Positions 41,064 to 57,469 of a stretch of DNA of 64,000 nucleotides are shown here, piece by piece; position 1 is the first letter of the stretch, and each line of letters begins with the position of its first letter. Location: the NCBI GenBank assembly GCA_012719125.1, contig JAAYAY010000013.1:1-64000 (forward strand), given 5' to 3'. The notes beneath the pieces were generated by a model. That model had not been told where the DNA came from and searched no databases. It saw nothing but the letters and a program-made list of their open reading frames with translations. The translations under genes were made by a program, and so were the position numbers. The DNA comes from Planctomycetaceae bacterium. Lineage in GTDB: Bacteria; Planctomycetota; Planctomycetia; Pirellulales; Thermoguttaceae.

Positions 41064-41158
41064 GCTTTGAGCCATGAACAGTGAGCGTTCGGCAGAGTTG
41101 CGGAATTCTCACTTTGAGCTCAACGCTTCCGTTTCTGAACCCTGTCTTGGAGAGAACC

Positions 41159-41851
41159 ATGCGAAGACGATCGATGTATAGCAGCCTGATTGCCCTGTTG
41201 GTCCTGACGGGCGCACCGCTCTCGGCGGAAGAGAAGTGCGTGGCCGATGTGAAAGAACCCGTCGAACTGTTCAACGGCAAGGACCTGAGCGGGTGGAGTT
41301 GCTTCCTCGTGGATGCAAATGCCAAGATGGAAGACGTCTGGAGCGTCAAGGACGGCATCCTGATCTGCAAGGGCGAGCCCCACGGCTACCTGGCCACGGA
41401 GAACCGGTACGAGAACTTCAAACTGATCGTGGAGTGGCGCTGGGCGCCGGGCAAAGAACCGGGCAACAGCGGTGTGCTGATGCGGATCACGGGCGAAGAG
41501 ATGATGCTGCCCAACTGCGTCGAAGCCCAATTGAAGAGCGGCGACGCCGGTGCCATGTACGGTTTCCAAGGCTTCAAGATCGACGGACCGGCCGAACGCA
41601 AGACGGAAACCAAGGGCCACAAGCTGGGCGGCGACTTGACGGGCCTGAAGAAGCTGGAGGCCGCCGAGAACACGCCTCCCGAGTGGAACCGCTACGAGAT
41701 CACGGCCAGCGGCGACAAGATCGCGGTCAAGGTGAACGGCAAGAAGGTCAATGAAGCGTTCGGCTGTGACGTGCGCTGCGGCAAGATCGCCGTCCAGTCG
41801 GAAGGCGGCGAGATTCACTTCCGCAAGATCTCGCTCCAGCCCGTCAATTGA
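41159..41851 (+). CDS. DUF1080 (3-keto-disaccharide hydrolase-like) secreted protein, tandem paralog
   Basis: RBS ggagag; signal 'MRRRSMYSSLIALLVLTGAPLSA'; 'FKLIVEWRW...SGVLMRI', 'KSGDAGAMYGFQG', 'NRYEITASGDKIAVKVNGKKVNE', 'GKIAVQSEGGEIHFRKISL'. Confidence 0.85.
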   Translation: MRRRSMYSSLIALLVLTGAPLSAEEKCVADVKEPVELFNGKDLSGWSCFLVDANAKMEDVWSVKDGILICKGEPHGYLATENRYENFKLIVEWRWAPGKEPGNSGVLMRITGEEMMLPNCVEAQLKSGDAGAMYGFQGFKIDGPAERKTETKGHKLGGDLTGLKKLEAAENTPPEWNRYEITASGDKIAVKVNGKKVNEAFGCDVRCGKIAVQSEGGEIHFRKISLQPVN

Positions 41852-42237
41852 CGCCCCGTCCTGCCTGAGTCTTCTATCCGAAACGGCCCCGGTTTCGTCC
41901 GCTCGAAGCCGGGGCCGGCTTGCATTGAGAGACGATCGCCAAGACGCGACCCATATCCCCCGAAAGAGCTAGATTTGCGATTGTGTTGCCGAAACGCAAC
42001 GCGGCAAGAATTCCCCATCTACTCTGATCGTAAAATCCTGCGCCGAAATCTCTCCGCAGCAGCCAAGAATGTCCCTTTCGGCTGATCCAATTTCGTGCGA
42101 GTTCGATTACACTCGGAACTATCGGACGCTGGATTTCGTCCTTAGGGACAGTGTAGGATTGTTATGGCTCTGCGCCAGTTGGCGGGCGATCGGTGGGTTC
42201 TGCAAGCCCGAACAGACACTCAGGTACGGCAGAAGAG

Positions 42238-45200
42238 ATGAGTACAGTCCAAGGTTTTCGTTTTCCGCAGCAGCGTACAAAGAAAGCCACGACAGCCCGG
42301 TCTTCCCGCGTCGAGGCCCTCGAACCTCGGCGGGTCCTGGCGGCGCCGACGCTGGCAGATCTCCCCAGCGAGATCAACATCTACGCGGGTGCTCCCGTCC
42401 ACCTCGCTCTGGGCGGCGCGGATGCGGACGGCGACAGTCTTACCTATACGGTTTCCAGCACGAATCCCCAGATCAGCGCATCGATCCCCAAGCAGGAGGC
42501 CCCCAACGGCAACCGGAGCATGCGGATTACGGTGCAGGGGTACGGGCAAATGGTGTTCGAATTGTTCGAAGGCCGCGCTCCCGAGACGACCTCGCGCATC
42601 ATCGAGATCGCCGAATCCGACTGGTACGACGACCGGATCTTCCACCGCGTCATCGACGGTTTCATGATTCAGGGCGGTTCCCGCGACGGGCTGGGCATCA
42701 ACGGAACGGGCACCCAGTTCGACGACGAATACGACGTGGAACTCCAGTTCACCTCCTCGGGGCTTCTGGCGATGGCCAAGGCCGGCGACGACACGAACGA
42801 TTCCCAATTCTTTATCACCGACGTGCCCTCGGGCGGCTATTCCTATCCGCGCTGGCTGGACTTCAACCACACGATCTTCGGCAAGCTGACTTCCGGCGAC
42901 AACGTTCGCGAAGCCATTTCGGCCGCCGCGACCAATTCGAGCGATCGTCCGACCACAGACATCGTCATCGAGTCGGTCGAGATCTTTCAAGACACCCAGA
43001 ATGCCGTGATGATGATTGCGGCGCCGCACGGCACCTACGACACGGGCAATATCACGGTCACCGTGAGCGACGGAAAAGGAGGTACGGCCAGCAAGACGGT
43101 CCAGGTCAACGTCCTGCCGGACGGCAACAACAACAACCCGTTCCTCGGCCCGATCGATCCCATTCGACTGGCGATCGACCAGCCTTACAGTTTCCAACTC
43201 AACGCCACGGACGTCGAAGGCGACAAGATCTACTACCAGGCCGAATTGCTCACCGACACGGACGATATCACGGTCGAGGTTTCGGAGTCCGGGCTGGTGA
43301 CGATCACGCCCAAGAACGAAGTCGTCGGCGTGGCCGAAATCGCCTTCCGCGTGGGTCCCACTGCCGCGTCGCTCGTTCCCGACGAATACGGGGACTATGA
43401 AGAGGCAACGATCGACGCGCAAATCGTGACGATTGAGATCCCCCCGGCAAAACCCGTCATCAGCTTTGCGCCCGGGGCGGACACGGGCGTTCTGGACGGC
43501 AACACCTCCAAAGACAATTCCTCGGGCAAGGAACTCTTCTTTGAGGTCAAGAACCTCCAGGCCACGTCGGAACTGGCCATCTATCTCCAGGGGGTGCAGG
43601 TGGGTTACGAGCAAATCGCCCGGATTCCCCAAGGGGACGGCACCAGCAATTTCGTGGCGACCATCCGCTTGCGATCGGAGATGGTGCTGGACGACGGGAA
43701 CTACACCCTCCACATCCAGCAACTTCTGCCGCTCGACTCGGAACTGTATGGCGACCAGAAGTTGGCAAGCGACGTGTCGGAACCTCTCGAGTTCTCCGTC
43801 GACACCGCGCCCCCCGTCATCACTTCCGAGGCGGTGGATGTCGCCTTCCAGGGAGAAGAGTACTTCTACGACGTCGACTCCGACGACGAAGGCGACGACG
43901 ACGTCTACTACGAACTGCAGATTCCGTTTCCCGCGGGGATGACCATCGATTCCGCCACCGGTGAGATCCGCTGGACTCCCGCAGCGACGGCCGGTTTCAC
44001 CGAGGAAGTCGTCGTCCGAGTGACCGACGGTGCGGGAAACAAGGGCGAGCAATCCTTCGAGATCACGGTTTACGCTCCCCTCGAGATCAGTCTCGAAGAA
44101 GGCGACACCAGCGTCGACGAACTGCAGACCGTGACCCTGATCCTCGAGGCCTCCAATCCCGCGGATTCGGCCTCGTCGCTGGTCATCACCTTGCAGGACG
44201 GGGTGTTGCCGGCCGAGGCCTATACCCTCGAACAACTGGACGGAAATCGTGCCCGCTTCACCTGGACGACCGGGGAAGCGGACGGACCCGGGGTCTACGA
44301 TCTGGTGTTCGGCGCCAACGACGGCGCCGATGCGCGCGGCAGTGAGACCATTCGAATCACGGTGAGCGAAGTCAACCAGGCACCCGAGTTCACCGAGGTC
44401 TTCGACGAGTGGACCGGGGCGGAAGAAGAACGAATCGATCTGCAATTCGTGGCGTCTGACGGCGATCTGCCCGCCAACGAATTGCTCTTCAACCTGTTTG
44501 GCGAAGTCCCCGACGGAGCGGTGATCGACGAAACCAGCGGCCTCCTCTCCTGGACCCCGGATGAGATCGACGGTGGGCGGACCTTCGAGTTCGGGGTCCG
44601 CGTGACCGATTCGGGCGGCCTGTCGGACGAACACACCATCGTCATCACCGTCGTCGAGAACCAGAAGGCGCCTGTCTTCGATCCCACGCCTCCTCAGCGA
44701 GTGACCGAAGGGGAGGTCCTTGATTTCGTCGTCGCGGCGCACGATCCCGACGTCCCCGCCCACGCCCTTGAGTATCAACTCGAAGGGGATGTGCCGGCGG
44801 GCCTTACCATCGACGCGCAAACGGGCCGCATCCGTTGGGATGTGCCGGAGGGGTATCTTCCCGGCACGACTCTGGAAGGCACTCTCGAACTGACCGTCGT
44901 CGCACGCGAAGTCGTGGCGGCCACGGAAGTTGGGCAGATCGCTCGGCAAACCGTGGAAATCACGGTGGTCGACGGCCTGGCCGATCTCGTCGCTGCCACA
45001 CTCACGCTGGCAGAGACGGCAATCTCCGATCCATTGGCCGGGCCGACAACCGTCTCGCTCACCGCGTTGACGCTCGATCGAGGATCGGAAGTACCCACGG
45101 TCTCGCAGAAGGCCGAGTTCTATGACGATCGAGGGTTCTTCGGGACCCTGTTCGGTCCGATCGGCACCGGCGGTGGAATCGAGCCTGGGACCAAGGAGAA

Positions 45201-45534
45201 GTCGGATTCCGAGGGCGAGACCGATCCCGGGGCAAACGGCGAGGGAGAACAAACCTCGGCCCTCGAACGACTGCTCGACGAGATCGCGGGCGACGTGAGC
45301 ACCAGCGTCTTCGACGCCCTCCTCTACGCCAAGACTGTTCCCGCCGACGCGCGCGAAGAACCGCCGGTTCCCGCTGACGAATCCCAGCCGGTTCCCCTGC
45401 CCACCGAGGAAGCGGCTCCTCCTGCTGAAGCCTCTGGGGCCGGGCAAACCCAGTCGGCTGCGGAGACCGAACTGGCCTCTGAGAAGCCCGAGAAGCCCGA
45501 AAAGGCTCCGCAAGGAGAGACCGTCAACTCCTAG
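42238..45534 (+). CDS. Giant secreted protein: N-terminal cyclophilin-type PPIase domain fused to multiple He_PIG/cadherin-like Ig repeats, acidic C-terminal tail
   Basis: Planctomycete-type N-terminal motif 'RVEALEPRRVLAAP'. Cyclophilin core 'MVFELFEGRAPETTSRIIEIAESDWYDDRIFHRVIDGFMIQGG...SGLLAMAKAG..NDSQFFIT...HTIFGKL'. Repeated 'PAGMTIDSATGEIRWTP', 'VIDETSGLLSWTP', 'PAGLTIDAQTGRIRWDVP' (He_PIG-like). Acidic tail rich in E/P/A. Confidence 0.8.
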   Translation: MSTVQGFRFPQQRTKKATTARSSRVEALEPRRVLAAPTLADLPSEINIYAGAPVHLALGGADADGDSLTYTVSSTNPQISASIPKQEAPNGNRSMRITVQGYGQMVFELFEGRAPETTSRIIEIAESDWYDDRIFHRVIDGFMIQGGSRDGLGINGTGTQFDDEYDVELQFTSSGLLAMAKAGDDTNDSQFFITDVPSGGYSYPRWLDFNHTIFGKLTSGDNVREAISAAATNSSDRPTTDIVIESVEIFQDTQNAVMMIAAPHGTYDTGNITVTVSDGKGGTASKTVQVNVLPDGNNNNPFLGPIDPIRLAIDQPYSFQLNATDVEGDKIYYQAELLTDTDDITVEVSESGLVTITPKNEVVGVAEIAFRVGPTAASLVPDEYGDYEEATIDAQIVTIEIPPAKPVISFAPGADTGVLDGNTSKDNSSGKELFFEVKNLQATSELAIYLQGVQVGYEQIARIPQGDGTSNFVATIRLRSEMVLDDGNYTLHIQQLLPLDSELYGDQKLASDVSEPLEFSVDTAPPVITSEAVDVAFQGEEYFYDVDSDDEGDDDVYYELQIPFPAGMTIDSATGEIRWTPAATAGFTEEVVVRVTDGAGNKGEQSFEITVYAPLEISLEEGDTSVDELQTVTLILEASNPADSASSLVITLQDGVLPAEAYTLEQLDGNRARFTWTTGEADGPGVYDLVFGANDGADARGSETIRITVSEVNQAPEFTEVFDEWTGAEEERIDLQFVASDGDLPANELLFNLFGEVPDGAVIDETSGLLSWTPDEIDGGRTFEFGVRVTDSGGLSDEHTIVITVVENQKAPVFDPTPPQRVTEGEVLDFVVAAHDPDVPAHALEYQLEGDVPAGLTIDAQTGRIRWDVPEGYLPGTTLEGTLELTVVAREVVAATEVGQIARQTVEITVVDGLADLVAATLTLAETAISDPLAGPTTVSLTALTLDRGSEVPTVSQKAEFYDDRGFFGTLFGPIGTGGGIEPGTKEKSDSEGETDPGANGEGEQTSALERLLDEIAGDVSTSVFDALLYAKTVPADAREEPPVPADESQPVPLPTEEAAPPAEASGAGQTQSAAETELASEKPEKPEKAPQGETVNS

Positions 45535-45819: not shown

Positions 45820-48800
45820 ATGACCAGACCGCTAACGTGCGCTTCAGACAGGGTAGTTGGTGTTCGTTGGTGGGCCTTGGCAGCAACAGCGTTGGCAGTT
45901 GTGCCTTGGAGTTGCCCAGGATTGCACGCTGCGGAGTATCAGCGGCCGGTCTACCCGGCCACTCAAGGCGCGTATCAGGCACAGGTCCCTGTTTCGCGAG
46001 CGGCGACGCCCGTGCAGCGGATCCCGGCCTACGCCTCGAATCCTCCTCAGGGAATGCAGCAGGCCACGTACTCAGACGCGTTGGCCGGTGGGACGGAGCC
46101 GGTCCTGCGGGCCTATTCCTGCACGCCGGCCCAGGGTGCCGTGCTCGACGCCACTCTGAACGAGCAGTTCAGAGGCCAAGGCAATGTGCGGATCGTCCTC
46201 GACCGCGGAGCCAGCCAACTTTTGGTCATGGCGCCCGAGCCGATCCAGCAACAGATCGCGGCCCAGATTCGAGCGGTGACCGCGGTCGCGGCAACGGTGC
46301 CCCAGCCCATGCCCGTGCAGCCGGTCGGCACCACTCCCATCGCGGCGCCTGCGAATGCTCAACGCCGCGAGTATCAACTCAGATATCTGACGGCAGCACG
46401 GCTGGAGGCGATTCTCCAGACCGCACTCGGGAATCGTTGGAGCCCGCTCCAGCAACCTGCCGGGGCACCGCCGGCTTATCACCTCCTGGTCGGGGGACGA
46501 CCCGATTTCACCATCTGGCTCGACCACGGTCGGAACCGATTGCTGCTCCAAGGCCCCGGGGGAAAGCCCTATGAGTCCTGTGCTCGACTGATCGAGTTGC
46601 TTGACACGCCCAACTCTTCGGACGGCTCGAGCCGCTGCCTGGTGTCGCTCACTACGGTCAGCACCGACGATCTCACTGCGGTCGTCAACGCCATTCATAC
46701 GACCAACGGTCCGGTGTCGCCCCGCAGGAGTGCGATCGGGCCCGCCAATGTCGTTCTGGCGCAGGCTACCGGACCGGCCGAGCAGCCGGCTGCTCTCGCG
46801 GCGCCGGGCGACCGCGAAGAAGTCACGGCCACCGTACCGTTTCCGGGCGGCGCCGAGCCTTCTGCCGGCACCGGGTTGATGGGGCCCGTTCAGATCGAAA
46901 TGGTCGAAGGCCTCGGTGTGCTCGTCATCAAGGGCGACAAACGCGACGTGGCCCAGGTGGTGAAACTGATCCAGGAAATCCAACAGATGAGCGATTTGAC
47001 CGAACCATCGGTCGTCGTGCACCCGCTCACTCACGTGAACTGCGAAGCGCTGGCCACTTTGGTGAGCACCCTCTACAGCGAAGTCTTCTCCACCCGGCAG
47101 GGGACGGTGAGCATCACCGCCCTGGTGAAGCCGAACGCCCTGCTGTTGATCGGACGCCCCGAGAACGTCGATACGGTCGTCAACCTGGTCAAACGCCTGG
47201 ACCGCCCGGTCCCACCGGAATCGCAGTTCAAAGTGTTTCGTCTCCGCCACGCCGCGGCGGCGACTGCCCAGGAAACGATCGAGCAGTTCTTCCAGGACAG
47301 CGAAGGGGAGCAACTGGCCGGATTGGGAACGCGGGTCCATGTGCTTGCCGATTTCCGCTCCAACTCGCTGATCGTCCGGGCGAGCCCCCGCGATATGCTC
47401 GAAGTCGAGCGCATGATCAACGAGATCGACACGCGCGACGCTACGGCCGTCAACGATCTGCGCGTCTTCAAATTGAAGAACTCCCTGGCCGAAGACCTGG
47501 AACCCATCCTGCAAAACGCCATCGCCGGGCAGCAAACGGGGCAGGCCCAACAGAACGTCGAGCAGAAATCGATCGGTCTGCGGCTAGTGACCATCGATTC
47601 GGCCGGGCAGAAACTGCTCAGTTCGGGTATCCTCACCGACGTGCGCGTGACCGCGGATCCGCGAGCCAACGCCCTGTTGATCTCGGCCCCGGCCGAAAGC
47701 ATGCCGCTGATCGAGGCCCTGATCAACCAGCTCGATCAACTGCCCGTCGCCGAAGCCCAGTTGAAGGTCTTCACGATCGTTAATGGCGATGCGGCCGCCC
47801 TGGTCGACATGCTCGAAGCCCTGTTCGGCCAGACCACCACGAACCAGAGCGAACCGCCGGTTCGCACCGGGGCTGCTGAGGGCGACAGCTCGCTCGTCTC
47901 GCTGCGATTTGCCACCGACGTCCGCACCAACAGCATCATCGCATCGGGCAGCCTGGGCGATCTGGCCGTGGTCGAGGCCATTCTGTTGCGGCTGGACGAA
48001 AGCGATGTTCGCGAGCGGAAGACCACGGTCTATCGCTTGAAGAACGCGCCGGCTCCCGACGTGGAGACCGCCATCAACGAATACCTCGATCAGGAGCAGC
48101 AGCTTCCCAACATCGGCGAAGGCCTGTTCAGCACCTTCGAGCTTCTCGATCGGGAAGTCATCGTGGTCGCCGAAACGGTCAGCAACAGCCTGATCGTCAG
48201 CGCCACGCCCAAGTACTACGACGAAATCAAATCCCTGGTCGAACAGCTCGACGAACGGCCCGGCATGGTCATGATCCAGGTGCTGATCGCCGAGGTCTAC
48301 CTCAACGACACTGAAGAGTTCGGCATCGAACTCGGCTTGCAGGACTCCGTTCTGTTCGATCGCAGCCTGCTGGGCGATATCACGACCATTAGCCGCACCA
48401 CCCAGGAGCCTGGCCTGGCGCAGGTCGTCACCCAGCAGATCGTCACTGCCACGAACGAACCGGGCTTTCTGTTCAACGACCTGACAAGTCCCCTGGGCAA
48501 CAGCGGGGCGTCGAACGCACTGGCCCAGTCTAATGTGGTCGGAGGTCAAGGCCTCTCCAACTTCGGCGTGGGGCGAATCAACAGCGAGCTCGGATTCGGC
48601 GGGCTGGTCATGTCGGCTTCGAGCGAGTCGGTGAGCGTGCTTCTGAGAGCCCTCAAGGAAGACCGGCGGATCAACATCCTCAGCCGGCCCCAGGTCATGA
48701 CCCTCGACAATCAGCCCGCCTCCATCCAGGTCGGCGAACGCGTTCCCACCATTAGCGGCAGCGAGACCAACGATGCGGGCGGGTTGACCAACCAGATCGA

Positions 48801-49602
48801 TTTCCAGGACGTCGGCCTGATTGTCGGGGTGACGCCCCGCATCAGCCCCGACGGGCTGGTGGTGATGGAGATCGACGCCGAGAAGTCGGAAGTCGGCCCC
48901 GAAGCCGAAGGCATTCCCGTTTCGGTCTCCGAAGGGGTGACCATTCGCAGCCCGCGAATCAAAACAATCACCGCCGCGACAACGGTCAGTGCGTTGGACG
49001 GGCAGACGGTGGTGCTCGGCGGTCTGATCACGTCGAACAAGACCAAGGTCGATCGGCGCGTGCCCTGGCTGTGCGAGATTCCGATCCTCGGTCAACTCTT
49101 CCGCTACCAAGGGTATACGTCCAAGAGGAGCGAACTGCTGATCATCATGACGCCGCGAATTGTGAAAAACGAGCAGGATGCCGAAATCGTCATGCAAACG
49201 GAAGCCGCTCGCATGAGTTGGTGTCTCAACGACGTGCTCGAACTTCACGAAGACGTCGCTCTCCGCCCACGCGGCGGCGAGTGGAAAGACGACGAAACGA
49301 CCACGATCTATCCCGACGGAAAGCCGACACCCGAGGAACTCGACAGCCTCGACAAGACTCCTCTCGATCCCCCCGCCTCGCCCACCGTGGCGCCTCCGGC
49401 GGATCCCTCGGCCGGCGCCCAACGCGGACGTTTCACGCCGGCAAACCGCCCCGGGACTTCCTATGTCGCCCCGGCCAACTATGAATCGAACCTGGACGCC
49501 GCGGCCCGCCCAACCGGCGGGGTTTATCCGGCCACGGGTTCCTACAGTTCCGCCGGACAAGCCTCTCCAACCGCCTCGTCCTATCCGTCAACAGGCTATT
49601 GA
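45820..49602 (+). CDS. Type II/III secretion-system secretin family protein (GspD/PilQ-like), unusually long (1,260 aa) with Pro/Ser/Tyr-rich C-terminal extension
   Basis: Signal 'WWALAATALAVVPWSCPGLHA'; repeated N-domains ('LRVFKLKNSLAEDLEPIL', 'LKVFTIVNGDAAALVDML', 'TVYRLKNAPAPDVETAI'). Secretin domain 'TTVSALDGQTVVLGGLITSNKTKVDRRVPWLCEIPILGQLFRYQGYTSKRSELLIIMTPRIV'. Confidence 0.9.
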   Translation: MTRPLTCASDRVVGVRWWALAATALAVVPWSCPGLHAAEYQRPVYPATQGAYQAQVPVSRAATPVQRIPAYASNPPQGMQQATYSDALAGGTEPVLRAYSCTPAQGAVLDATLNEQFRGQGNVRIVLDRGASQLLVMAPEPIQQQIAAQIRAVTAVAATVPQPMPVQPVGTTPIAAPANAQRREYQLRYLTAARLEAILQTALGNRWSPLQQPAGAPPAYHLLVGGRPDFTIWLDHGRNRLLLQGPGGKPYESCARLIELLDTPNSSDGSSRCLVSLTTVSTDDLTAVVNAIHTTNGPVSPRRSAIGPANVVLAQATGPAEQPAALAAPGDREEVTATVPFPGGAEPSAGTGLMGPVQIEMVEGLGVLVIKGDKRDVAQVVKLIQEIQQMSDLTEPSVVVHPLTHVNCEALATLVSTLYSEVFSTRQGTVSITALVKPNALLLIGRPENVDTVVNLVKRLDRPVPPESQFKVFRLRHAAAATAQETIEQFFQDSEGEQLAGLGTRVHVLADFRSNSLIVRASPRDMLEVERMINEIDTRDATAVNDLRVFKLKNSLAEDLEPILQNAIAGQQTGQAQQNVEQKSIGLRLVTIDSAGQKLLSSGILTDVRVTADPRANALLISAPAESMPLIEALINQLDQLPVAEAQLKVFTIVNGDAAALVDMLEALFGQTTTNQSEPPVRTGAAEGDSSLVSLRFATDVRTNSIIASGSLGDLAVVEAILLRLDESDVRERKTTVYRLKNAPAPDVETAINEYLDQEQQLPNIGEGLFSTFELLDREVIVVAETVSNSLIVSATPKYYDEIKSLVEQLDERPGMVMIQVLIAEVYLNDTEEFGIELGLQDSVLFDRSLLGDITTISRTTQEPGLAQVVTQQIVTATNEPGFLFNDLTSPLGNSGASNALAQSNVVGGQGLSNFGVGRINSELGFGGLVMSASSESVSVLLRALKEDRRINILSRPQVMTLDNQPASIQVGERVPTISGSETNDAGGLTNQIDFQDVGLIVGVTPRISPDGLVVMEIDAEKSEVGPEAEGIPVSVSEGVTIRSPRIKTITAATTVSALDGQTVVLGGLITSNKTKVDRRVPWLCEIPILGQLFRYQGYTSKRSELLIIMTPRIVKNEQDAEIVMQTEAARMSWCLNDVLELHEDVALRPRGGEWKDDETTTIYPDGKPTPEELDSLDKTPLDPPASPTVAPPADPSAGAQRGRFTPANRPGTSYVAPANYESNLDAAARPTGGVYPATGSYSSAGQASPTASSYPSTGY

Positions 49603-49631
49603 TGCACTTTCGCTGCAAGGATATCGTTCCA

Positions 49632-50585
49632 ATGACACTCCGGATTCGTGAAACGGCGGTCCGCTCTTGGTGCGTGCTTCTGGTGGTCACGGCCTGTCTG
49701 GCAAGCGGCTGTGCCCAATGGGACTTGAAGAAGTCCTGGACGCCCTCCCTGTTCGGTGACGGCAACGACAAGCCTCAGATACCTAACCGGGTCGTTGCCG
49801 TGTGGGTCGACACGATCCGCTACACCCAGGGCCAACCTCCCACGCGAGGATTCGGCGGTCGCTTGATGTTCTACCAGAAGGACGAAGAGAAGCCGGTCAA
49901 GGTCGAAGGCGAACTGGTGGTCTACGCCTTTGACGAAGAAGATCGGAAGCCCACCGATCCGCGCCCGACACGCAAGTATGTCTTCCCGGCCGACCAAATC
50001 GACGCGTACTACAGCGAGTCGAAGATCGGGCACTCCTACAGCTTCTTTGTGCCCTGGGACGAAGTGGGCGGATATCGCAAGAACATCAGTCTGATTGCTC
50101 GCTTCCAGCCGAAACTGGGACCGGTCGTTGTCGGCGAGCAGACCCACCACATCCTGCCCGGCAAACCGTTGCCGGAGGATCTGCAGAACGCGAGTGCGGA
50201 AACAGACTACGCAGGCTCGGTACGGGCAGCCTCATTCAGTTCGCCCACGCCGGAGGAAAAGCCATACGACCCGAACCGCGCGCGAATGAAATCGACCACC
50301 ATCCCGCTGTCGCCCTCGTTCGGCCGGCAGACGCCTAAGGCCGAGGTCCGGCGCCGCTCGGTGGGCTCGCAGACTAGGGCGTCGGTTCCAGCAACGCAGG
50401 CGCTTCCTGAGAATCCGGACTCGCCGCAACCTTCAACTGATTCTCAACTTTCCAGATCCCGGCCTCAAGCATCGCCAATCGTTCGGCGAGAAGGCGATCG
50501 TGCTCTGTCGACACCACGCCTCGCAGCGTGGCGGTCCCCTGGTCGACCGACACTTCCAAAGGCGTCCGGTTCTGAATCCAAGTAG
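49632..50585 (+). CDS. Lipoprotein of unknown function immediately downstream of the secretin (pilotin-like position), low-complexity C-terminus
   Basis: Lipobox 'LLVVTACLASGCAQ'; starts about 30 nt after the secretin stop. Conserved-looking core 'VVAVWVDTIRYTQG...RLMFYQKDEEKPVKVEGELVVYAFDE'; the C-terminal S/P/R-rich tail overlaps a convergent gene. Confidence 0.6.
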   Translation: MTLRIRETAVRSWCVLLVVTACLASGCAQWDLKKSWTPSLFGDGNDKPQIPNRVVAVWVDTIRYTQGQPPTRGFGGRLMFYQKDEEKPVKVEGELVVYAFDEEDRKPTDPRPTRKYVFPADQIDAYYSESKIGHSYSFFVPWDEVGGYRKNISLIARFQPKLGPVVVGEQTHHILPGKPLPEDLQNASAETDYAGSVRAASFSSPTPEEKPYDPNRARMKSTTIPLSPSFGRQTPKAEVRRRSVGSQTRASVPATQALPENPDSPQPSTDSQLSRSRPQASPIVRREGDRALSTPRLAAWRSPGRPTLPKASGSESK

Positions 50586-51072
50586 AGTTCGTCATCCGTT
50601 CGGCAAGCCGCGAGGCAACCGCAGACGGCGCCCGTGACGGCGCAATCGTGCTGGGCTTGGGCGGAGTGAAGCCGAGTTGCAGGACAACGCGAACCTCGTC
50701 CCGCTGTCGCCCGCGTCCGCCGCTCCGATTGACGTTGGCGCTGCTCGCGCCGCCACCCCGGCGGATATTGCGACTGCGAGAACTCTGGTTTCCTCCGTCG
50801 GCGGAAGCGGCGCCGACAAAACCCGCGTCCGCCGAATCGGCCCCCACGAAGGCGTTTTGGCGGTTGTCGCGCATGAACCGCGCATTCGTGTCGACCTGAC
50901 CCGCGCTGCCGACGCCAAAGCTGCCCGCGCTGCCCTGACCGCCTGTCTGGCCACTGACCTGGAACCCGGCCTGATTGCTTCGCGCGCCGCCCGCTCGCTG
51001 CTGGGCAAACGACTCCTGCCCCACAAAACCGGCGACTGATACAACGGCTGCAATGATCAGATAGCGACGCAT
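50374..51072 (-). CDS. Secreted BON-domain protein with Gly/Ser/Ala-rich linker
   Basis: Signal 'MRRYLIIAAVVSVAGFVGQESFA'; C-terminal BON domain 'LEVSVDQGTATLRGVVSTEHDRLLAERLAMLEAGIWKVENQLKV'. Confidence 0.65.
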   Translation of the reverse strand: MRRYLIIAAVVSVAGFVGQESFAQQRAGGARSNQAGFQVSGQTGGQGSAGSFGVGSAGQVDTNARFMRDNRQNAFVGADSADAGFVGAASADGGNQSSRSRNIRRGGGASSANVNRSGGRGRQRDEVRVVLQLGFTPPKPSTIAPSRAPSAVASRLAERMTNSTWIQNRTPLEVSVDQGTATLRGVVSTEHDRLLAERLAMLEAGIWKVENQLKVAASPDSQEAPALLEPTP

Positions 51073-51394
51073 CGGATTCTCCCCTCGGAAACTCATCCTT
51101 CGGAAAGGCGGTGATCCTTACCTACATCGTACACCTCGGCCAGCAAAGCACAATATGCACCCGGGCTTCAGCACAACGGGAGCGACCGACGAACCTTGCC
51201 GAACCTACCACCGATGGGTGTCAACGATCGTAACGGCCATGCAGATGGTCGGGGTAATCCGTGCCATGGCGAAGGTGACGCCTTTCCGGTCGGCACCGTC
51301 GTCAAACCCCGCATATTCCTACGTAGCCGAGTCTCTCCAAGACTCAACACCGATCCGATCGCGAAGTCTCGCCACGCTTTTTCGGGGGCCAACG

Positions 51395-52753
51395 TCACAT
51401 GGCCCTCGTCGACGGGTAGATCGGAATCGAACCGCCGGTCAGGGGGGAGAAAACCGGGACTCGCACGGATCGGTCGACCGGCGGCAAGGGCGCGAACCCG
51501 GGCGGCGCAGAAGACGCCATAGAACGGCGATTCTGCCCGGAGTAGCCGGTGGAGACGGAACTGCGGCCATAGCCGTCGTCTGATCGGGAGTAGCCCCAGC
51601 TCTCCGTCGACCGGGGTTCATTCTCAACCGGCACAAGTCCCAGATTGCTGCTGGCGGGAACGGCGCCGGCGGAGGCTGCTGCCGAGTCCTCATACGAGGG
51701 GGGACTGTACGCGTAAGGGCCCGACGGCAGCGCGGTAACGGATTCGCCGCCCGGCCAGGTGCTGGAATCGTCGGCAGCAGCCTCCTGCCGTTCGCCGTAG
51801 CGAGTGGGAGAACGGTCGTTGTCGAACGATGAGTCGTTCCCGTAGGAATCACTCAGAGAGTTGTCCCGAGAGTTGTTGTTGCCGTAGGTGTTTTCGTCGG
51901 TGTTGCTATAGGTGTTGCCGTAGCTGTCGGAACTGTCGCCATAGGACGAGTCATCCCGGTGGGAGTAGCTGTCGTCGGCATAGGAATTCGTTCCATACGG
52001 ATCGTATTCTGAATCCCCGTTCGACTCGTCCCTGCTCGAGTCGTTCCAGGAATAGTCGTTTCCCGTCTCTGTGTCGTCCCCGGCCAGAGTCGCCCGCGAT
52101 TTCCCGCTGCTCCCCCCCGAACCATAAGTGTCGGACTTGGCTCGGCTCTTGTTGCGACGATTGCGTTTGGCACTTGCAGAATCGTCCTGGTTGGACGAAT
52201 CCTTGCTCCCGTAGCCGTCGTACCCGTCCTTGGAGGACGTGGAATCCTCGTCGCAGTAACCATAGGAATCGCCGCGGCTGTCCGAAGCGTCTTCGTCCGA
52301 GCTGTCTTCTTCCTCGTGGCTCTTTCCAGACGAGTAGCGATTACTCGCGTAGCTGGAGCCGTATAACGAAGAGTACTTGCTTGACGACTCCTCTTCATTC
52401 AACTCGTCCGATTCTTCTTCCTCTTCTTCCCCGTAGGAACGATGCGAACCGTAGGAATACGAACTGTATTCGGATTTTCCCTCCGAATCGTCGTTCCCGT
52501 AGCTCGACCAACTGGAGCGGCAGCCGGACGACGATACCTCCGCGGCTTCATCGGTGTCGGCCCCGTAACGGCCCCCTGCCTTGTCCGAATCTGTCGCATC
52601 GCCGGTCGATTCGGCACAAACCACCACCCGCGTCGAAGAAGACGCTTCCGGGACTGCAGCCATCTCGAGGACCACGGGGAATCGGGCCGTATTGAACCCG
52701 ATACACGTGGCCACGAGCATCACGACGGCGATGGCGGCAGGGATTCTTGGCAT
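51395..52753 (-). CDS. Secreted, strongly acidic Ser/Asp/Tyr/Gly-rich low-complexity protein (452 aa)
   Basis: Signal/TM 'MPRIPAAIAVVMLVATCIGF'; then near-continuous S/D/Y/G/E/N repeats ('SEYSSYSYGSHRSYGEEEEEESDELNEEESSSKYSSLYGSSYASNRYSSGKS', 'DSSYGDSSDSYGNTYSNTDENTYGNNNSRDNSLSDSYGNDSSFDND'). Uninterrupted 1.36-kb ORF despite lower local GC. Confidence 0.55.
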   Translation of the reverse strand: MPRIPAAIAVVMLVATCIGFNTARFPVVLEMAAVPEASSSTRVVVCAESTGDATDSDKAGGRYGADTDEAAEVSSSGCRSSWSSYGNDDSEGKSEYSSYSYGSHRSYGEEEEEESDELNEEESSSKYSSLYGSSYASNRYSSGKSHEEEDSSDEDASDSRGDSYGYCDEDSTSSKDGYDGYGSKDSSNQDDSASAKRNRRNKSRAKSDTYGSGGSSGKSRATLAGDDTETGNDYSWNDSSRDESNGDSEYDPYGTNSYADDSYSHRDDSSYGDSSDSYGNTYSNTDENTYGNNNSRDNSLSDSYGNDSSFDNDRSPTRYGERQEAAADDSSTWPGGESVTALPSGPYAYSPPSYEDSAAASAGAVPASSNLGLVPVENEPRSTESWGYSRSDDGYGRSSVSTGYSGQNRRSMASSAPPGFAPLPPVDRSVRVPVFSPLTGGSIPIYPSTRAM

Positions 52754-53183: not shown

Positions 53184-55700
53184 TCACTCCTTCAGTTCCA
53201 CTACATCTTTCCCCTGGGAACGCACGCCGATGATGCGGCGGCCGTCGACAATCACCTGGTACGTCACGCCGTTTTCGCCCTCGATGATGGCCTGGTCGCC
53301 CTGAAGGGTGACGGGAAACGGTGCTGCCACCCGGTGCGTCTTGTCGGCCGCCACCGAAATCGCGTCGAGTTTGCCCTCCAGCACGAGGCGCAAGCTGACC
53401 AGCGCGCAGGGATTGATCGTCCAGGGACGACGTTCCTGGGTCTCCAGCGCCAACGCGTCCGGAAGAAGGCCCGCGTAGTCGCCGTCGGGATACTGCATCT
53501 GCTCGCCCGCAATCAGAATCCCCCAGGCGAGGTGTTTCCAGTCGAGCGTGTCGTCGTAGGGTGCCAGCTTCGTGAGGGCATAGGCATACACTAGTCCGAC
53601 CCATTGGACCGGGAGTCCGAACCAGACGGGGGCTCGCCAGTTGGTCGCTCCCAGAACGGGAACCGTCCCGTAGACCATGATCGGTTGATTGCCCCACTGG
53701 TAGACGAACGGTACTCCGGAAATCGCCCACCGGCGCGCCTCGTCGAGATAGCTCTTGTCGCCCGTCAGTTCATAGCCTCGCACGTAGGCCCAGACGAGAT
53801 AGGCCGACGCCAGTTGGTCGGGAGTGTGCAAGGGAATCTCCCAAACTTGGGCGCCGCGAGGCGTGCGGAACCGCTTCATGTACTCCAACGTGCGGACACC
53901 AGCCTCCAGGGCGCGGGGGTCCGCCGTAATCCAGGCGTATTCCAGCAGGCCGGCCGCCGGCCTGGCGCAAACGCCGCTTGCCGTGTCTTCGTGGTGGCCC
54001 TGGGCGAACTTGCCCTGATAGCGAAAAGAACCGTCCTCCTGCTGCTGTTTCAGCAATCCGTCGATCTGCGCAAGCTGCTTCTCCTTCCATTCGAAGGCCT
54101 GATTGGTCAGGAAGAAAATCGATTCGTTGGCGATATGGGCGCCGCGCATCGTGAAGTCGCGCCGTCTGGGCACCTGGCCCGTGAGTCGGAAAAGCGTGGA
54201 AACCATGTCGGCGAAGTACTGCCTCGGCCAGCGGTCTTCGACGCAATGGCCCCATCCCTCGGTGGATCGCAGGGGACCATTGAGCGCTTGCAGGCAGAGT
54301 CGGTACTGGGCCTCGGAGCTGCGTGGGGCGTCTGGTAAGGGAGGAAGCCCGCGGCGCTTCACCGCCCAAACGATCTGATCCTCCAGAGAGCCGCCGGCCA
54401 CTCGCAGGACCGCCTTGATCGTGGAACCCTGCAAGGCCATGCGGTGATCGTCGGCCGCGTCGAAGAAATTGGGTGTGGCAAAGATCGGTTGCAGGCCCAT
54501 GTCGTCCCAGGTCAGCGAGACCGACGCTCGGTCGGTGACAAACGACATGAGCGGCATGGTCACGTCGAGCGGCTTGGGGGCGAAGCGGAGGTGGGCTTCT
54601 GTTTCCACGTCGAGCTTGGTGGAACTGTGTTCTCCCTTTCCGAGGTGTTCCAGGCCGGCGAGCAGGCCCTGCTCCAGGCCGCCCAAGACTCGGACCACCG
54701 GGCCTTCACACACGCTCTCGCTCTCGATGACGATATGAATCTCGTTGCCGGCGGTCGAAAGCGTCAACGCAACTCCCTCACCGCGAAACTGAAGGGATTG
54801 AGGCGTGGACGTCAAGTTGAACGACGGGATCCGGTAATCGCAGTGAACCAGCGGCGCCAACAGGGCGACCACCTGGTCGTTCCGAAAAACGCGAGCCGCC
54901 TTGCCGTCCGGAGCGACCTGCAGCTTTCCGCCCTCCAAGGGCATGTCCAGCCACTGGACCGGCGCCTCCGGATGCACGACGAAAAGCGAGCGGCTCACGT
55001 CGGGCAGACCCTCGGCCTGAAGGTCGATCCGAATCGGTTCGATGAGTTGCTTGGCGTCGGTGCCGATCGCGATCACCTTCTCGGTCCCGGGCTGCAGCAA
55101 GAGTACCTGCCCGGCGGCGGTGAACTGTCTCGGTGAGGTCCCATGATTCTTGATCGTGAATTCCGCCCCCGCCTCCGTTAACGCGATACGATCAATCGAC
55201 AACGGGTGCTCGCCCAGGTGGACGAGGCGAATCCAGTCGATCTCGATTTCCCCGGCGCCGTCGGCCGGATCAAGCCGGATGTCGGTCAAATGCCCGGGAG
55301 CGTGGAAGTCGACCTTGTATTCGTGCCACTCATTGTCGGGAATCACTTCGAGGGAACGCGCCTTGTCGTCGCCCCGGCGCGGCGACTCCCGGGTGATCCA
55401 ATAGACCTGGGCAGGCCCTGGAGCCGTGCCGCGGGCGCGGTACTCGAGAGCCATCTGCCCCCCGGAAGTGTCAACGCGGGCGTGCATGTAGGGATCCTTG
55501 CCGGTTGTGTGGACGAGCAGATTGCCGTCGCGGGTCGTCAGCTCGCAACGAGCTTCCGCAAACCAGCCCTTCGTCCCCTCGGAGAAGTCCCACTCCGCCA
55601 CCACTTCGCGGAGTGTTGGACGTGGCATCGGATTGATCTGAGGCAACGGTTCGTCGAACCCCGGCAAGCAGAGCAGACAGATAATGGCGGCGTGGTGCAT
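53184..55700 (-). CDS. Large secreted hypothetical protein (839 aa), possible glycan-active alpha/alpha-toroid-like C-terminal region
   Basis: RBS ggagg before 'MHHAAIICLLCLPGFDEP'; no named motif recognised. C-terminal third is W/Y-rich ('YLVWAYVRGYELTGDKSYLDEARRWAISGVPFVYQWGNQ'). The function is inference only. Confidence 0.55.
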   Translation of the reverse strand: MHHAAIICLLCLPGFDEPLPQINPMPRPTLREVVAEWDFSEGTKGWFAEARCELTTRDGNLLVHTTGKDPYMHARVDTSGGQMALEYRARGTAPGPAQVYWITRESPRRGDDKARSLEVIPDNEWHEYKVDFHAPGHLTDIRLDPADGAGEIEIDWIRLVHLGEHPLSIDRIALTEAGAEFTIKNHGTSPRQFTAAGQVLLLQPGTEKVIAIGTDAKQLIEPIRIDLQAEGLPDVSRSLFVVHPEAPVQWLDMPLEGGKLQVAPDGKAARVFRNDQVVALLAPLVHCDYRIPSFNLTSTPQSLQFRGEGVALTLSTAGNEIHIVIESESVCEGPVVRVLGGLEQGLLAGLEHLGKGEHSSTKLDVETEAHLRFAPKPLDVTMPLMSFVTDRASVSLTWDDMGLQPIFATPNFFDAADDHRMALQGSTIKAVLRVAGGSLEDQIVWAVKRRGLPPLPDAPRSSEAQYRLCLQALNGPLRSTEGWGHCVEDRWPRQYFADMVSTLFRLTGQVPRRRDFTMRGAHIANESIFFLTNQAFEWKEKQLAQIDGLLKQQQEDGSFRYQGKFAQGHHEDTASGVCARPAAGLLEYAWITADPRALEAGVRTLEYMKRFRTPRGAQVWEIPLHTPDQLASAYLVWAYVRGYELTGDKSYLDEARRWAISGVPFVYQWGNQPIMVYGTVPVLGATNWRAPVWFGLPVQWVGLVYAYALTKLAPYDDTLDWKHLAWGILIAGEQMQYPDGDYAGLLPDALALETQERRPWTINPCALVSLRLVLEGKLDAISVAADKTHRVAAPFPVTLQGDQAIIEGENGVTYQVIVDGRRIIGVRSQGKDVVELKE

Positions 55701-56146
55701 CGGTTCCTCCAGACATCCCTGTTGGGCAGTCGGCCGCCCGCCACAGAGCCCGACGCGGACGGCGAAAACGCCAGTGTAGCAGATCCCCCGGCAAGCCGCG
55801 CACCGGCCGACGGGCTCTCGAAGAGAATCTGCGGGCTGACGGGCCCAGCGTTGGGCTGATGGACGGACTCCATGCGTCCCAAGGGCCCTGGCTGACCCAC
55901 TGGACGCCGAAATTCTGTCTCGCCTTGTGGCGAACGCGGTGAGCCAATTACGATAGGAGATATCACCGGCCATCCATCGGCGATTGGAGTCGGATCGTCT
56001 GTCTTGTGCTTGCCCTACTCCGTCTGGGTTCCAGCTTCTCGTTCGATCGGGGGGCAAAAACCGCCGGAGCCCCCAACCCCACTGGTTGGGCGGATTGGGT
56101 GGCCGGAGGCGGGAATCGGAACCTCGCAACCCCTCGGAGTGCGGCA

Positions 56147-57469
56147 ATGCCCCGACGCAATCTACGCGTTCTCGTCCTGGCGTTGCTGGTGTGCCTCCTC
56201 TGCGCGCCACGCGTCTCCCGATCCGGTCGCGTCCTCTGGTTTGCCATGCGCCACATCGAGGCCCACTACCTCACCTCCGTCGACGAAGAAAAACTGTTTC
56301 AAGGGGCCATGGACGGGATGACGAAGGCATTGGGCGACCCCTATTCAGCCTATATTCCCCCCGAAGTTCTCCCCGAATTCAATGAGCAAATCGATCGCCA
56401 GTTCGGCGGGCTGGGAATCGAGATCCGGATCGACCACGATACCAAGTACCTTACCGTCGCCAGCCCACTCGTTGGCACGCCGGCAGCCGAGGCCGGTCTG
56501 CTTGCCGGCGATCGAATCCTGCGAATCGATGATGAAAGCACTCAAGGCCTTTCCATCGAGGACGCCGCCAAACTGCTTCGCGGCCTGCCCGGGGAACCGG
56601 TGACGCTGACCATCTCGAGGAAGGGTGCGAAAGAGACTCGCCAGGTTGAGGTCGTTCGTGCCGAGATTCAGGTCGGTACGGTGTTGGGAGACACGCGCGA
56701 TGCGGACGGCTCCTGGAACTACTACCTCGACGGGTATCCCGGAATCGGATACCTGCGACTCGATTCTTTCGGCGAGAACACCGGGGCGCAGATGCGCGAG
56801 GTGATCGCCGATCTGAAGAAACAGGGCCTGAAAGGTCTGATTCTGGACATGCGGGGCAACCCGGGCGGCCTGCTGCCCGCGGCAATCGACGTCTGCGACC
56901 TGTTCGTTTCTCCCGACGATCCCCCCTCGACCGGGCCCGGCGGTGAACACATTTCGTCCGGCCTGATCCTCACGACACGCGATCGCCGGGGACAGGTGAT
57001 CCAGGAATTCTACGCCCATGACGACGGAACCGTGAACGGCTTTCCCATGGCCGTGCTTGTCAACGGGGAGAGTGCCTCGGCCGCCGAGATCGTGGCCGCT
57101 TGCCTTCAGGATCACGGCAAGGCGATCGTCGTGGGGGAACGCTCGTTCGGAAAGGGCACCGTCCAGGAGATTCTCGACTTTCACCCGGACCAGGGGCTCC
57201 TCAAGCTGACCATGGCCAGTTATTGGCGTCCCAGCGGACGGAACATCAACCGCAGCGAAGGCGCGCAGGAATGGGGCGTATCGCCTAATGCCGGTTTTGC
57301 GGTCGCCCTCAACGATGAGGAACGGGTCAATCTTGCCGTCGCGCGGCGGATGCGCGACGTAGCCGAGTCCTACACCGACGAAGAACTGGCCGCAGAAGAA
57401 GTCCCCGAGTTCAACGATCGCCAGCGCAATGCGGCCGTCGAGTGGATCGAGGATCAGATCTCGAACTGA
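56147..57469 (+). CDS. Carboxyl-terminal processing protease (S41 family, CtpA/Prc-like) with PDZ domain
   Basis: Signal 'LVLALLVCLLCAPRVS'; PDZ 'LAGDRILRIDDESTQGLSIEDAAKLLRGLPGEPVTLTI'; S41 'GLILDMRGNPGGLL', catalytic Ser 'VLVNGESASAAEIVAACLQDHGKAIVVGERSFGKGTVQ'. Confidence 0.9.
   Translation: MPRRNLRVLVLALLVCLLCAPRVSRSGRVLWFAMRHIEAHYLTSVDEEKLFQGAMDGMTKALGDPYSAYIPPEVLPEFNEQIDRQFGGLGIEIRIDHDTKYLTVASPLVGTPAAEAGLLAGDRILRIDDESTQGLSIEDAAKLLRGLPGEPVTLTISRKGAKETRQVEVVRAEIQVGTVLGDTRDADGSWNYYLDGYPGIGYLRLDSFGENTGAQMREVIADLKKQGLKGLILDMRGNPGGLLPAAIDVCDLFVSPDDPPSTGPGGEHISSGLILTTRDRRGQVIQEFYAHDDGTVNGFPMAVLVNGESASAAEIVAACLQDHGKAIVVGERSFGKGTVQEILDFHPDQGLLKLTMASYWRPSGRNINRSEGAQEWGVSPNAGFAVALNDEERVNLAVARRMRDVAESYTDEELAAEEVPEFNDRQRNAAVEWIEDQISN

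What the first reader, a model, noticed from the sequence alone, without database searches (positions are those of the whole stretch)
45820..52753. Candidate novel envelope assembly/secretion module: giant secretin, pilotin-like lipoprotein, BON protein, acidic S/D/Y/G-rich cargo-like protein
A 1,260-aa secretin with at least three N-domains and a Pro/Ser/Tyr tail is followed 30 nt later by a lipoprotein in the position of a pilotin. Next come a convergent BON-domain protein (BON domains are associated with outer-membrane/secretin complexes) and a 452-aa secreted, extremely acidic Ser/Asp/Tyr/Gly-repeat protein. The window contains no cognate ATPase, inner-membrane platform or pseudopilin genes. 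The secretin may therefore serve a dedicated, non-T2SS/T4P export or surface-fibre/holdfast system with the low-complexity protein and the cyclophilin–He_PIG giant as candidate substrates or partners. This combination is not a described system.
Basis: inference. Interest (0 to 1): 0.7.

Follow-up and report, generated by a model that had tools for sequence, protein, structure and literature searches.

The report
Split type II secretion outer-membrane module
The giant secretin is the outer-membrane pore of an ordinary type II secretion system whose other genes lie outside this window; it always travels with two little-known helper genes (a lipoprotein and a BON-domain protein), while the acidic protein and the cyclophilin giant are just local neighbours.

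Summary
The proposed new non-T2SS system is not supported.

**What holds up**
- The secretin scores best as GspD by sequence and by fold.
- In 85 related loci plus Pirellula staleyi, a homologue of the lipoprotein follows the secretin in 67 of 67 loci with enough downstream DNA.
- A convergent BON gene follows in 52 of 58 such loci.
- In P. staleyi and 12 of 77 distinct loci, this trio sits directly beside a canonical T2SS cluster (GspE-F-G-pseudopilins-J-K plus two platform-like genes). It does so in three different arrangements.
- T2SS-linked secretins are scattered through the secretin tree rather than forming a separate branch.

**What does not**
- The acidic Ser/Asp/Tyr protein is found only in relatives with 73–78% identical secretins.
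- The cyclophilin–He_PIG protein is found in full only in one relative (secretin 65% identical).

**What is new**
- The lipoprotein belongs to a large unannotated family (about 2,300 clusters at 50% identity). It has a β-sandwich fold and resembles no known pilotin.
- Its 3′ end overlaps the BON gene convergently in 63 of 67 loci, always in the same phase. I cannot explain this.

**Verdict:** a T2SS outer-membrane module separated from its operon, a new variant of a known kind. The roles of the lipoprotein and BON protein are inferred, not shown.

The parts
45820..49602 (+). GspD-type secretin, 1260 aa. It has a signal peptide, two N-terminal alpha/beta domains (res ~90-296), a disordered linker (300-348), an array of Secretin_N domains (res ~355-830), the secretin core (res 944-1116), a conserved post-core segment (res ~1125-1166) and a Pro/Ala/Ser/Tyr tail (res 1171-1260).
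   Evidence: Pfam. NCBIfam TIGR02517 GspD 347.5 bits, cut-off 351.35. AF2 model of res 1-640, whose best Foldseek hits are T2SS secretins. Conservation in alignment A1.
48649..49167 (+). Secretin pore-forming core domain (PF00263), residues 944-1116.
49192..49317 (+). Conserved segment after the secretin core (EAARMSWCL..DV..LH....W.D.ET..IYPD). It sits where the S-domain lies in other secretins, so it is a candidate docking site for the lipoprotein (inference).
   Evidence: Nearly invariant columns W1134, C1135, D1138, V1139, W1155, E1159, Y1164, P1165, D1166 in A1.
49632..50585 (+). Secretin-linked lipoprotein, 317 aa. Signal peptide with lipobox Cys27 (nt 49710-49712). Beta-sandwich domain at nt ~49776-50168. 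Disordered tail with a conserved RMxTTTI motif at nt ~50283-50303.
   Evidence: Homologue directly downstream of the secretin in 67/67 loci. Alignment A2. AF2 pLDDT >94 for res 50-180. Lipobox in 164/221 complete homologues.
50374..51096 (-). Secreted single-BON-domain protein, 240 aa (the start may be the Met at 51072). Signal peptide, Gly/Ser/Ala-rich low-complexity region, BON domain at nt 50425-50619.
   Evidence: Pfam BON. Convergent homologue present in 52/58 loci.
50374..50585 (.). Convergent 3' overlap of 212 nt between the lipoprotein and BON ORFs. The lipoprotein tail is encoded opposite most of the BON domain.
   Evidence: Overlap present in 63/67 loci, always in the same phase (2 mod 3), 38-182 codons, median 78. 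Chance expectation is a median of 20 codons.

Best explanation
Positions 45820-51096 encode the outer-membrane part of a planctomycetal type II secretion system. It consists of a long, multi-N-domain GspD-type secretin and two dedicated accessory envelope proteins inherited with it as a block.

The ATPase, inner-membrane platform and pseudopilins (GspE/F/G/H-K and two GspL/M-like proteins) are presumably encoded elsewhere in this genome, as in most relatives. I could not check this.

Proposed mechanism:
- The secretin multimer forms the gated outer-membrane pore. Its unusually long stack of N-domains (about seven small domains) spans the wide planctomycetal periplasm.
- The lipoprotein is co-transcribed 30 nt downstream. 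It is lipid-anchored, and its beta-sandwich and/or short RMxTTTI motif dock on the secretin. It would act as a pilotin or stabilising collar for outer-membrane targeting and assembly.
- The BON protein supplies in trans the membrane- or envelope-binding BON module that other secretins carry fused in cis.

Shown: the identity and type of the secretin, the co-conservation of the three genes, and their physical linkage to T2SS operons in relatives.
Inferred: the roles of the lipoprotein and the BON protein, and the presence of the remaining T2SS genes elsewhere in this genome.

The acidic Ser/Asp/Tyr protein, the cyclophilin-He_PIG protein and the 1008-aa protein are lineage-specific neighbours, not parts of the module.
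For: **Secretin type**
- Pfam Secretin_N x5 plus Secretin.
- Best NCBIfam model is GspD TIGR02517 at 347.5 bits, against PilQ 217, SctC 148 and MshL 145.
- The AF2 N-terminal model hits ExeD, EpsD, GspD, PulD and XcpQ (E 5e-9 to 3e-7), ahead of InvG (2e-4) and PilQ (5e-3).

**Linkage to T2SS**
- L003, Pirellulales MAG: GspE-F-G-pseudopilins-J-K-511aa-304aa-secretin-lipoprotein-BON.
- Pirellula staleyi DSM 6068: T2SSJ-T2SSK-529aa-399aa-secretin-lipoprotein-BON-DUF3352.
- In 12 of 77 distinct loci T2SS genes adjoin the trio: upstream, downstream of BON, or downstream and inverted.
- T2SS-linked secretins are interspersed with unlinked ones in an NJ tree. One T2SS-linked clade (L046/49/50/63) lies in the same major branch as the window's clade.

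**Co-conservation**
- Lipoprotein 67/67, BON 52/58, down to about 42% secretin identity with unrelated flanks.

**BON and secretins**
- 'BON + secretin' fusion is a catalogued architecture (PMC7806268).

**Non-members**
- The acidic protein occurs only in L001 and L007. A full-length cyclophilin-He_PIG occurs only in L006. No compositionally similar ORF occupies that slot elsewhere.
Against: - No T2SS ATPase, platform or pseudopilin gene lies within the 64 kb window. I could not check the rest of the genome.
- The GspD equivalog score falls 4 bits short of NCBI's cut-off.
- The lipoprotein has no sequence or fold similarity to any known pilotin. It gives only generic FN3/Ig-like hits. About a quarter of homologues lack a recognisable lipobox. 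A pilotin role is therefore positional inference.
- BON is missing from 6 of 58 loci even with an HMM search, so it is not strictly obligatory.
- In genomes where the trio is separate, it could in principle serve another filament system.
Confidence: 0.72

Rival explanations
1. One reading: a dedicated, non-T2SS/T4P export or surface-fibre/holdfast system. The secretin, pilotin-like lipoprotein and BON protein would export the acidic Ser/Asp/Tyr protein and/or the cyclophilin-He_PIG giant.
For: - No ATPase, platform or pseudopilin genes in the window.
- The acidic protein has a hydrophobic N-terminus and lies next to the trio.
- The cyclophilin-He_PIG protein carries an N-terminal LEPRRVLAA motif typical of exported planctomycetal proteins (the motif's meaning is from memory).
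Against: - The same trio is embedded in canonical T2SS clusters in relatives.
- The acidic protein is conserved only at 73-78% secretin identity. The cyclophilin giant occurs only in L006 and is absent from the otherwise syntenic L001.
- No similar low-complexity ORF sits in that slot in other loci.
Confidence: 0.05
2. The module belongs to a T2SS, but the lipoprotein is not a pilotin. It would be a GspC/PilP-like connector (a beta-sandwich binding the secretin N-domains and linking to the inner-membrane platform) or a periplasmic belt around the secretin, as described for the Deinococcus T2SS.
For: - Beta-sandwich fold, like the HR domains of GspC and PilP (from memory).
- No Pfam-recognisable GspC in the planctomycetal T2SS operons.
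- Accessory belt and cap proteins around a non-proteobacterial GspD are reported for D. radiodurans (PMC10828601 abstract).
Against: - The operons already contain two unassigned platform-like proteins just upstream of the secretin. One of them has an Ig-like domain and could be the GspC analogue.
- The gene stays with the secretin, not with the platform genes, whenever the cluster is split.
Confidence: 0.15
3. In genomes where the trio is separated from T2SS genes, as here, the secretin serves another type IV filament machine (T4P, Tad or MSH-like) or several machines. It would not specifically be a T2SS part.
For: - Most loci (15 of 18 with at least 9 kb on both sides) have no T2SS genes nearby.
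- The GspD equivalog score is just below the cut-off.
Against: - No pilus genes were found next to the trio in any of the 85 loci.
- The tree shows no separate paralogous clade of unlinked secretins.
- Scores for PilQ, MshL and SctC models are far below their cut-offs.
Confidence: 0.08

Closest known systems
Type II secretion system secretin GspD (PulD, EpsD, XcpQ; TIGR02517, PF00263 + PF03958)
   Same: - Secretin core and repeated N-domains.
- Best sequence and fold matches are GspD-type secretins.
- Orthologues close canonical GspE-K operons.
   Different: - About twice as long (1260 aa), with roughly seven small periplasmic domains, a disordered internal linker and a Pro-rich tail.
- Scores 4 bits below the equivalog cut-off.
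- Here it is separated from the other gsp genes.
Pilotins of secretins (PulS/OutS, AspS, PilF/PilW/Tgl, MxiM/YscW/ExsB, TadD)
   Same: - Small lipoprotein.
- Encoded right next to its secretin, here 30 nt downstream.
- Strictly co-inherited with it.
   Different: - No sequence or fold relation to any of these families.
- Beta-sandwich plus a long disordered tail with a short conserved motif.
- About 25% of homologues lack a lipobox.
- Function untested.
BON-domain envelope proteins (OsmY, DolP/YraP) and BON-secretin fusions (Tad/CpaC-type)
   Same: - A BON domain, which is a membrane/phospholipid-binding module in DolP.
- BON fused to secretins is a catalogued architecture (PMC7806268).
   Different: - A single BON domain on a separate secreted protein with a Gly/Ser-rich spacer.
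- No lipobox.
- Encoded convergently and overlapping the lipoprotein gene.
Deinococcus radiodurans T2SS secretin complex with belt (DR_1364) and cap (DR_0940)
   Same: A non-proteobacterial GspD that carries extra, lineage-specific structural partners (PMC10828601, abstract).
   Different: No homology was tested or claimed. The resemblance is only in concept.

Membership tests
T2SS secretin GspD | C-terminal secretin pore domain (PF00263) | tested here: met
   E 2.8e-46, residues 944-1116
T2SS secretin GspD | Periplasmic N-domains (N0 plus repeated Secretin_N) | tested here: met
   Five Secretin_N stretches. AF2 model of res 1-640 best matches GspD/XcpQ N0-N2 and full GspD structures. No Pfam N0 model hit.
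T2SS secretin GspD | Score above NCBIfam equivalog cut-off (TIGR02517) | tested here: not met
   347.5 bits against a cut-off of 351.35. It is the best of all secretin models by 130 bits.
T2SS secretin GspD | Encoded with GspE/F/G/J/K | tested here: inconclusive
   Not in this window. Met for orthologues in L003, L070, L083, L046, L049, L050, P. staleyi and others. The rest of this genome could not be searched.
T2SS secretin GspD | Required for secretion of folded exoproteins | not testable with these tools
   Needs genetics or proteomics.
Pilotin (secretin-targeting lipoprotein) | Lipoprotein signal peptide with lipobox cysteine | tested here: met
   LASG-C27 fits the PROSITE lipobox pattern. 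164 of 221 complete homologues fit it.
Pilotin (secretin-targeting lipoprotein) | Homology or fold of a known pilotin family (PulS_OutS, AspS, TPR PilF/PilW, MxiM/ExsB) | tested here: not met
Pilotin (secretin-targeting lipoprotein) | Binds the secretin C-terminal S-domain and is needed for outer-membrane assembly | not testable with these tools
   Only genomic linkage (67/67) speaks for an interaction.
BON-domain protein (PF04972) | BON domain above the Pfam gathering score | tested here: met
   40.5 bits against 27, residues 160-224
OsmY/DolP type | Two BON domains (DolP also has a lipobox) | tested here: not met
   One BON stretch only. Signal peptide without a lipobox cysteine.
   T2SS adjacency in 12 of 77 loci and in P. 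staleyi. Acidic protein and cyclophilin giant not co-conserved.

The most novel reading that the evidence does not exclude
The secretin-lipoprotein-BON trio is an undescribed outer-membrane sub-complex of the T2SS, conserved widely among Pirellulales and other Planctomycetia. It would include a new pilotin-like or collar protein family (over 2,000 sequence clusters, no annotation) and a trans-acting BON module. Its two accessory genes would be held in a selected, phase-locked convergent overlap that couples their expression or demands a long lipoprotein tail.
Probability: 0.45. Interest if true: 0.55.

Novelty: new variant of a known kind. Interest (0 to 1): 0.42.

Why it matters
Planctomycetes secrete many polysaccharide-degrading enzymes. 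Yet a 2025 century review of the phylum does not use the terms 'secretion system', 'T2SS' or 'secretin' at all. The TXSScan survey listed no T2SS for the phylum.

This work does three things:
- It shows that the orphan giant secretins of these genomes belong to a T2SS.
- It shows that they always travel with an unannotated lipoprotein family and usually with a BON protein. That gives concrete candidates for how a secretin is targeted and braced in an envelope with an enlarged periplasm.
- It gives annotators a rule for finding split T2SS parts.

The phase-locked 3' gene overlap is a clean natural case for studying the constraints on antisense-overlapping genes.

Tried and rejected
- The genome-contig scan with the single secretin gave only one close relative (L001). 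General synteny there could not separate linkage from recent common descent. I therefore used the metagenome scan with a profile.
- Looking beyond the window ends failed. The sigma-factor ORF as I delimited it is not on record, so I could not test whether the same contig carries gspE-K.
- I searched for a compositionally similar acidic ORF beyond BON in other loci and found none.
- I tested whether the lipoprotein tail's sequence is constrained in the overlap, using synonymous-site entropy of BON. It is not. Only the open frame is conserved.
- An NCBIfam scan for a LEPR-XLL signal in the cyclophilin giant gave no hit.
- I considered a fused-chain prediction of the lipoprotein-secretin complex. 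I did not run it because chimeric sequences are not accepted, and a single sequence without a paired alignment would be uninformative.
Full report
**1. Observation**

The window is high-GC (about 62%) and looks planctomycetal. The closest database proteins are labelled Planctomycetaceae, Thermoguttaceae or Pirellulales.

- **Secretin**, 45820-49602 (+), 1260 aa. Pfam finds five Secretin_N stretches and a C-terminal Secretin domain. The last 90 residues are Pro/Ala/Ser/Tyr-rich.
- **Lipoprotein**, 317 aa, starting 30 nt downstream at 49632. It has a signal peptide and the lipobox LASG-C. It has no Pfam or NCBIfam match.
- **BON protein**, 50374-51096 (-), 240 aa and convergent. It has a signal peptide, a Gly/Ser/Ala-rich spacer and one BON domain.
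- **Acidic protein**, 51395-52753 (-), 452 aa, pI 4.2, with Ser 21%, Asp 10%, Gly 9.5% and Tyr 7%.

Pfam scans of all substantial ORFs in the window found no ATPase, platform or pseudopilin genes. A tblastn search with a complete planctomycetal T2SS gene set also found none.

The lipoprotein and BON ORFs overlap by 212 nt at their 3' ends.

**2. What the secretin is**

- Among NCBIfam models, GspD (TIGR02517) is far the best at 347.5 bits. That is 4 bits under its equivalog cut-off. PilQ scores 217, SctC 148 and MshL 145.
- An AlphaFold model of residues 1-640 shows two N-terminal alpha/beta domains (about 90-296), a disordered linker, and then a string of beta-alpha-beta-beta-alpha N-domains.
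- Its best Foldseek matches are T2SS secretins: ExeD, EpsD, GspD, PulD and XcpQ, at E 5e-9 to 3e-7. These come ahead of T3SS InvG (2e-4) and PilQ (5e-3).
- About 1,250-1,450-aa homologues are common. At least 220 clusters score E <= 1e-20 among the 8,000 candidates scored, and several are labelled 'type II secretion system protein D' by JGI. 'Giant' is therefore the norm for this lineage.

**3. Context in relatives**

The only genome-collection hit, L001 (73% identity), is syntenic across the whole neighbourhood. It lacks the cyclophilin-He_PIG gene. That is not informative about function, so I went further out.

Look-ups for three distant homologues gave the following.
- L002 (54% identity) and L004/5 (47%) keep secretin, then a lipoprotein homologue, then a convergent BON gene. 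Their flanks are otherwise unrelated.
- L003, a 1-Mb Pirellulales contig, has the trio at the end of a canonical cluster. The order is GspE (MshEN+T2SSE), GspF, GspG, N-methyl pseudopilins, GspJ, GspK, a 511-aa and a 304-aa protein, and then the secretin.

A profile scan of metagenome contigs gave 80 more loci. Counting over 77 non-redundant loci:
- The lipoprotein homologue lies directly downstream on the same strand in 67 of 67 loci with at least 1.2 kb of downstream DNA.
- A convergent BON gene follows in 52 of 58 loci with at least 2.5 kb. The six exceptions also lack BON in an HMM search. In L027 the next genes are housekeeping ORFs, by my reading dapB and threonine synthase.
- T2SS genes adjoin the trio in 12 loci, in three arrangements:
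  - an upstream operon ending in the secretin (L003, L070, L083, L072, L078, L068);
  - an operon starting after BON (L046, L049, L050, L063);
  - downstream and inverted (L030, L084).
- Of 18 loci with at least 9 kb on both sides, 15 have no T2SS genes. That matches the window.

The cultured type strain Pirellula staleyi DSM 6068 has T2SSJ-T2SSK-529aa-399aa-secretin(1314 aa)-lipoprotein homologue-BON-DUF3352.

In a neighbour-joining tree of 86 secretins, the T2SS-linked ones are scattered among the unlinked ones. One linked clade lies in the same major branch as the window's own clade. So the unlinked genes are not a separate paralogue with a different job. The cluster has been split repeatedly, which fits the weak operon structure generally attributed to planctomycetal genomes (my own knowledge).

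**4. What is not part of it**

- The acidic protein has homologues only in L001 and L007, where the secretin is 73-78% identical.
- A full-length cyclophilin-He_PIG orthologue occurs only in L006. The other hits are single Ig or cyclophilin domains.
- The 1008-aa protein, the S41 protease and the beta-helix protein follow general synteny only.
- No similarly acidic Ser/Asp/Tyr ORF occupies the slot beyond BON in any other locus.

These genes are lineage-specific neighbours. Whether any of them is a T2SS substrate cannot be tested here.

**5. The two accessory proteins**

*Lipoprotein.*
- The family is large: 2,321 clusters at 50% identity with E <= 1e-3, and 2,011 at 1e-10.
- Every member that a source names is called 'hypothetical protein', and none has a Pfam domain.
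- The conserved part is residues about 45-180, with the motifs RGFGGRLMFY, VVYAFDE, DRKYVF, GHSYS and PWD. A variable disordered tail follows, carrying one short conserved motif, RMxTTTI.
- AlphaFold gives a confident beta-sandwich, with pLDDT above 94 for residues 50-180.
- A lipobox is present in 164 of 221 complete homologues.

*BON protein.* It has a single C-terminal BON domain. 'BON + secretin' fusions are a catalogued architecture (PMC7806268). A BON module working with a secretin therefore has precedent, but here it is supplied in trans.

*The secretin's possible docking site.* The secretin has a strongly conserved 40-residue segment after the pore domain (W1134, C1135, D1138, V1139 ... 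Y1164, P1165, D1166). It lies where S-domains bind pilotins in other systems.

**6. Mechanism proposed**

*Shown:*
- a GspD-type secretin;
- a three-gene block inherited together;
- physical linkage of that block to complete T2SS clusters in relatives.

*Inferred:*
- The secretin forms the outer-membrane pore of a T2SS whose inner components are encoded elsewhere in this genome.
- The many N-domains span the enlarged periplasm.
- The co-transcribed lipoprotein docks on the secretin and pilots or stabilises it in the outer membrane. The docking site could be the post-core segment or, alternatively, the N-domains, in which case it would act as a connector or belt.
- The BON protein anchors the assembly to a membrane leaflet or the envelope.

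**7. An unexplained feature**

- The lipoprotein and BON ORFs overlap convergently in 63 of 67 loci, by 38-182 codons (median 78).
- There are 40 different overlap lengths, but every one is in the same phase (overlap = 2 mod 3).
- In that antisense phase, real genes of this window carry a stop every 31 codons or so. Open runs have a median of 20 codons. P(>=40 codons) is about 0.28 and P(>=78) about 0.08 per independent lineage. The frame therefore appears to be kept open by selection.
- Yet BON's synonymous third positions, which are the lipoprotein's second positions, vary as freely in the overlap as elsewhere. The tail's sequence is not conserved; only its continuation is.
- Possible reasons are a need for a long disordered tail, or antisense coupling of the two mRNAs. 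Neither was tested.

**8. Comparison and novelty**

The secretin is a member of the GspD kind, with a borderline score on the strict equivalog model. The system is a T2SS, not a new class.

The new elements are the obligatory partnership with an unannotated lipoprotein family, the frequent BON partner in trans, and the phase-locked overlap.

In the searchable literature I found no description of a planctomycetal T2SS or of this trio.
- No paper combined 'Planctomycetes', 'T2SS' and 'GspD'.
- A 2025 review of the phylum does not use the terms 'secretion system', 'T2SS' or 'secretin'.
- TXSScan reported only T1SS for the phylum.

I rate this as a new variant of a known kind, of moderate interest.

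**9. Limits**

- The rest of this genome could not be searched, so the presence of gspE-K elsewhere is an inference from relatives.
- The loci are phylogenetically related, so the counts are not independent events.
- The tree is a quick NJ tree.
- The roles of the lipoprotein and the BON protein rest on linkage, fold and analogy only.

Noticed in passing
window 50374-50585; also L001-L086: The lipoprotein and BON genes overlap convergently at their 3' ends in 63 of 67 loci. The phase is always the same and the overlap is 38-182 codons, far longer than the chance expectation (median 20 codons). The overlapped lipoprotein tail is not sequence-conserved.
   Followed up: partly
window 42193-45534 (+) and 57454-60438 (-): Both large surface-type proteins flanking the module carry an N-terminal LE[PS]RxLLA motif (LEPRRVLAA, LESRLLLAV). 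One is cyclophilin + He_PIG + cadherin-like, the other a beta-helix/NosD-like protein. The motif resembles the 'LEPR-XLL' signal that I recall from planctomycetal exported proteins. NCBIfam gave no hit, and no such proteins flank the trio in other loci.
   Followed up: partly
L003 15952-17879; L086 7886-9820; also L036, L040, L044, L056, L067: In several loci a DUF3352 protein follows the BON gene, often preceded by a ~170-aa protein. This includes Pirellula staleyi. It may be a fourth, clade-restricted accessory gene. It is absent from the window.
   Followed up: no
L003 7193-9664; L086 15971-18756: Two proteins sit between GspK and the secretin in planctomycetal T2SS operons (~511-529 aa and ~304-399 aa). 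They have no confident Pfam match, only weak PilM_2 and weak Ig-like (He_PIG/Big_9) hits. They are probably divergent GspL/M/C-like platform parts.
   Followed up: partly
window 53184-56210 (-): A 1008-aa ORF has good coding statistics but no Pfam or NCBIfam match. It is conserved (77% identity) only in the close relative L001.
   Followed up: no
window 40332-41063 and 41081-41851 (+): Two tandem 3-keto-disaccharide hydrolase (PF06439) paralogues. L001 has only one at this position.
   Followed up: no
L027 9746-13723: In this relative the secretin ORF runs on beyond the usual C-terminus into an extra ~100-residue segment. The locus lacks a BON gene.
   Followed up: no
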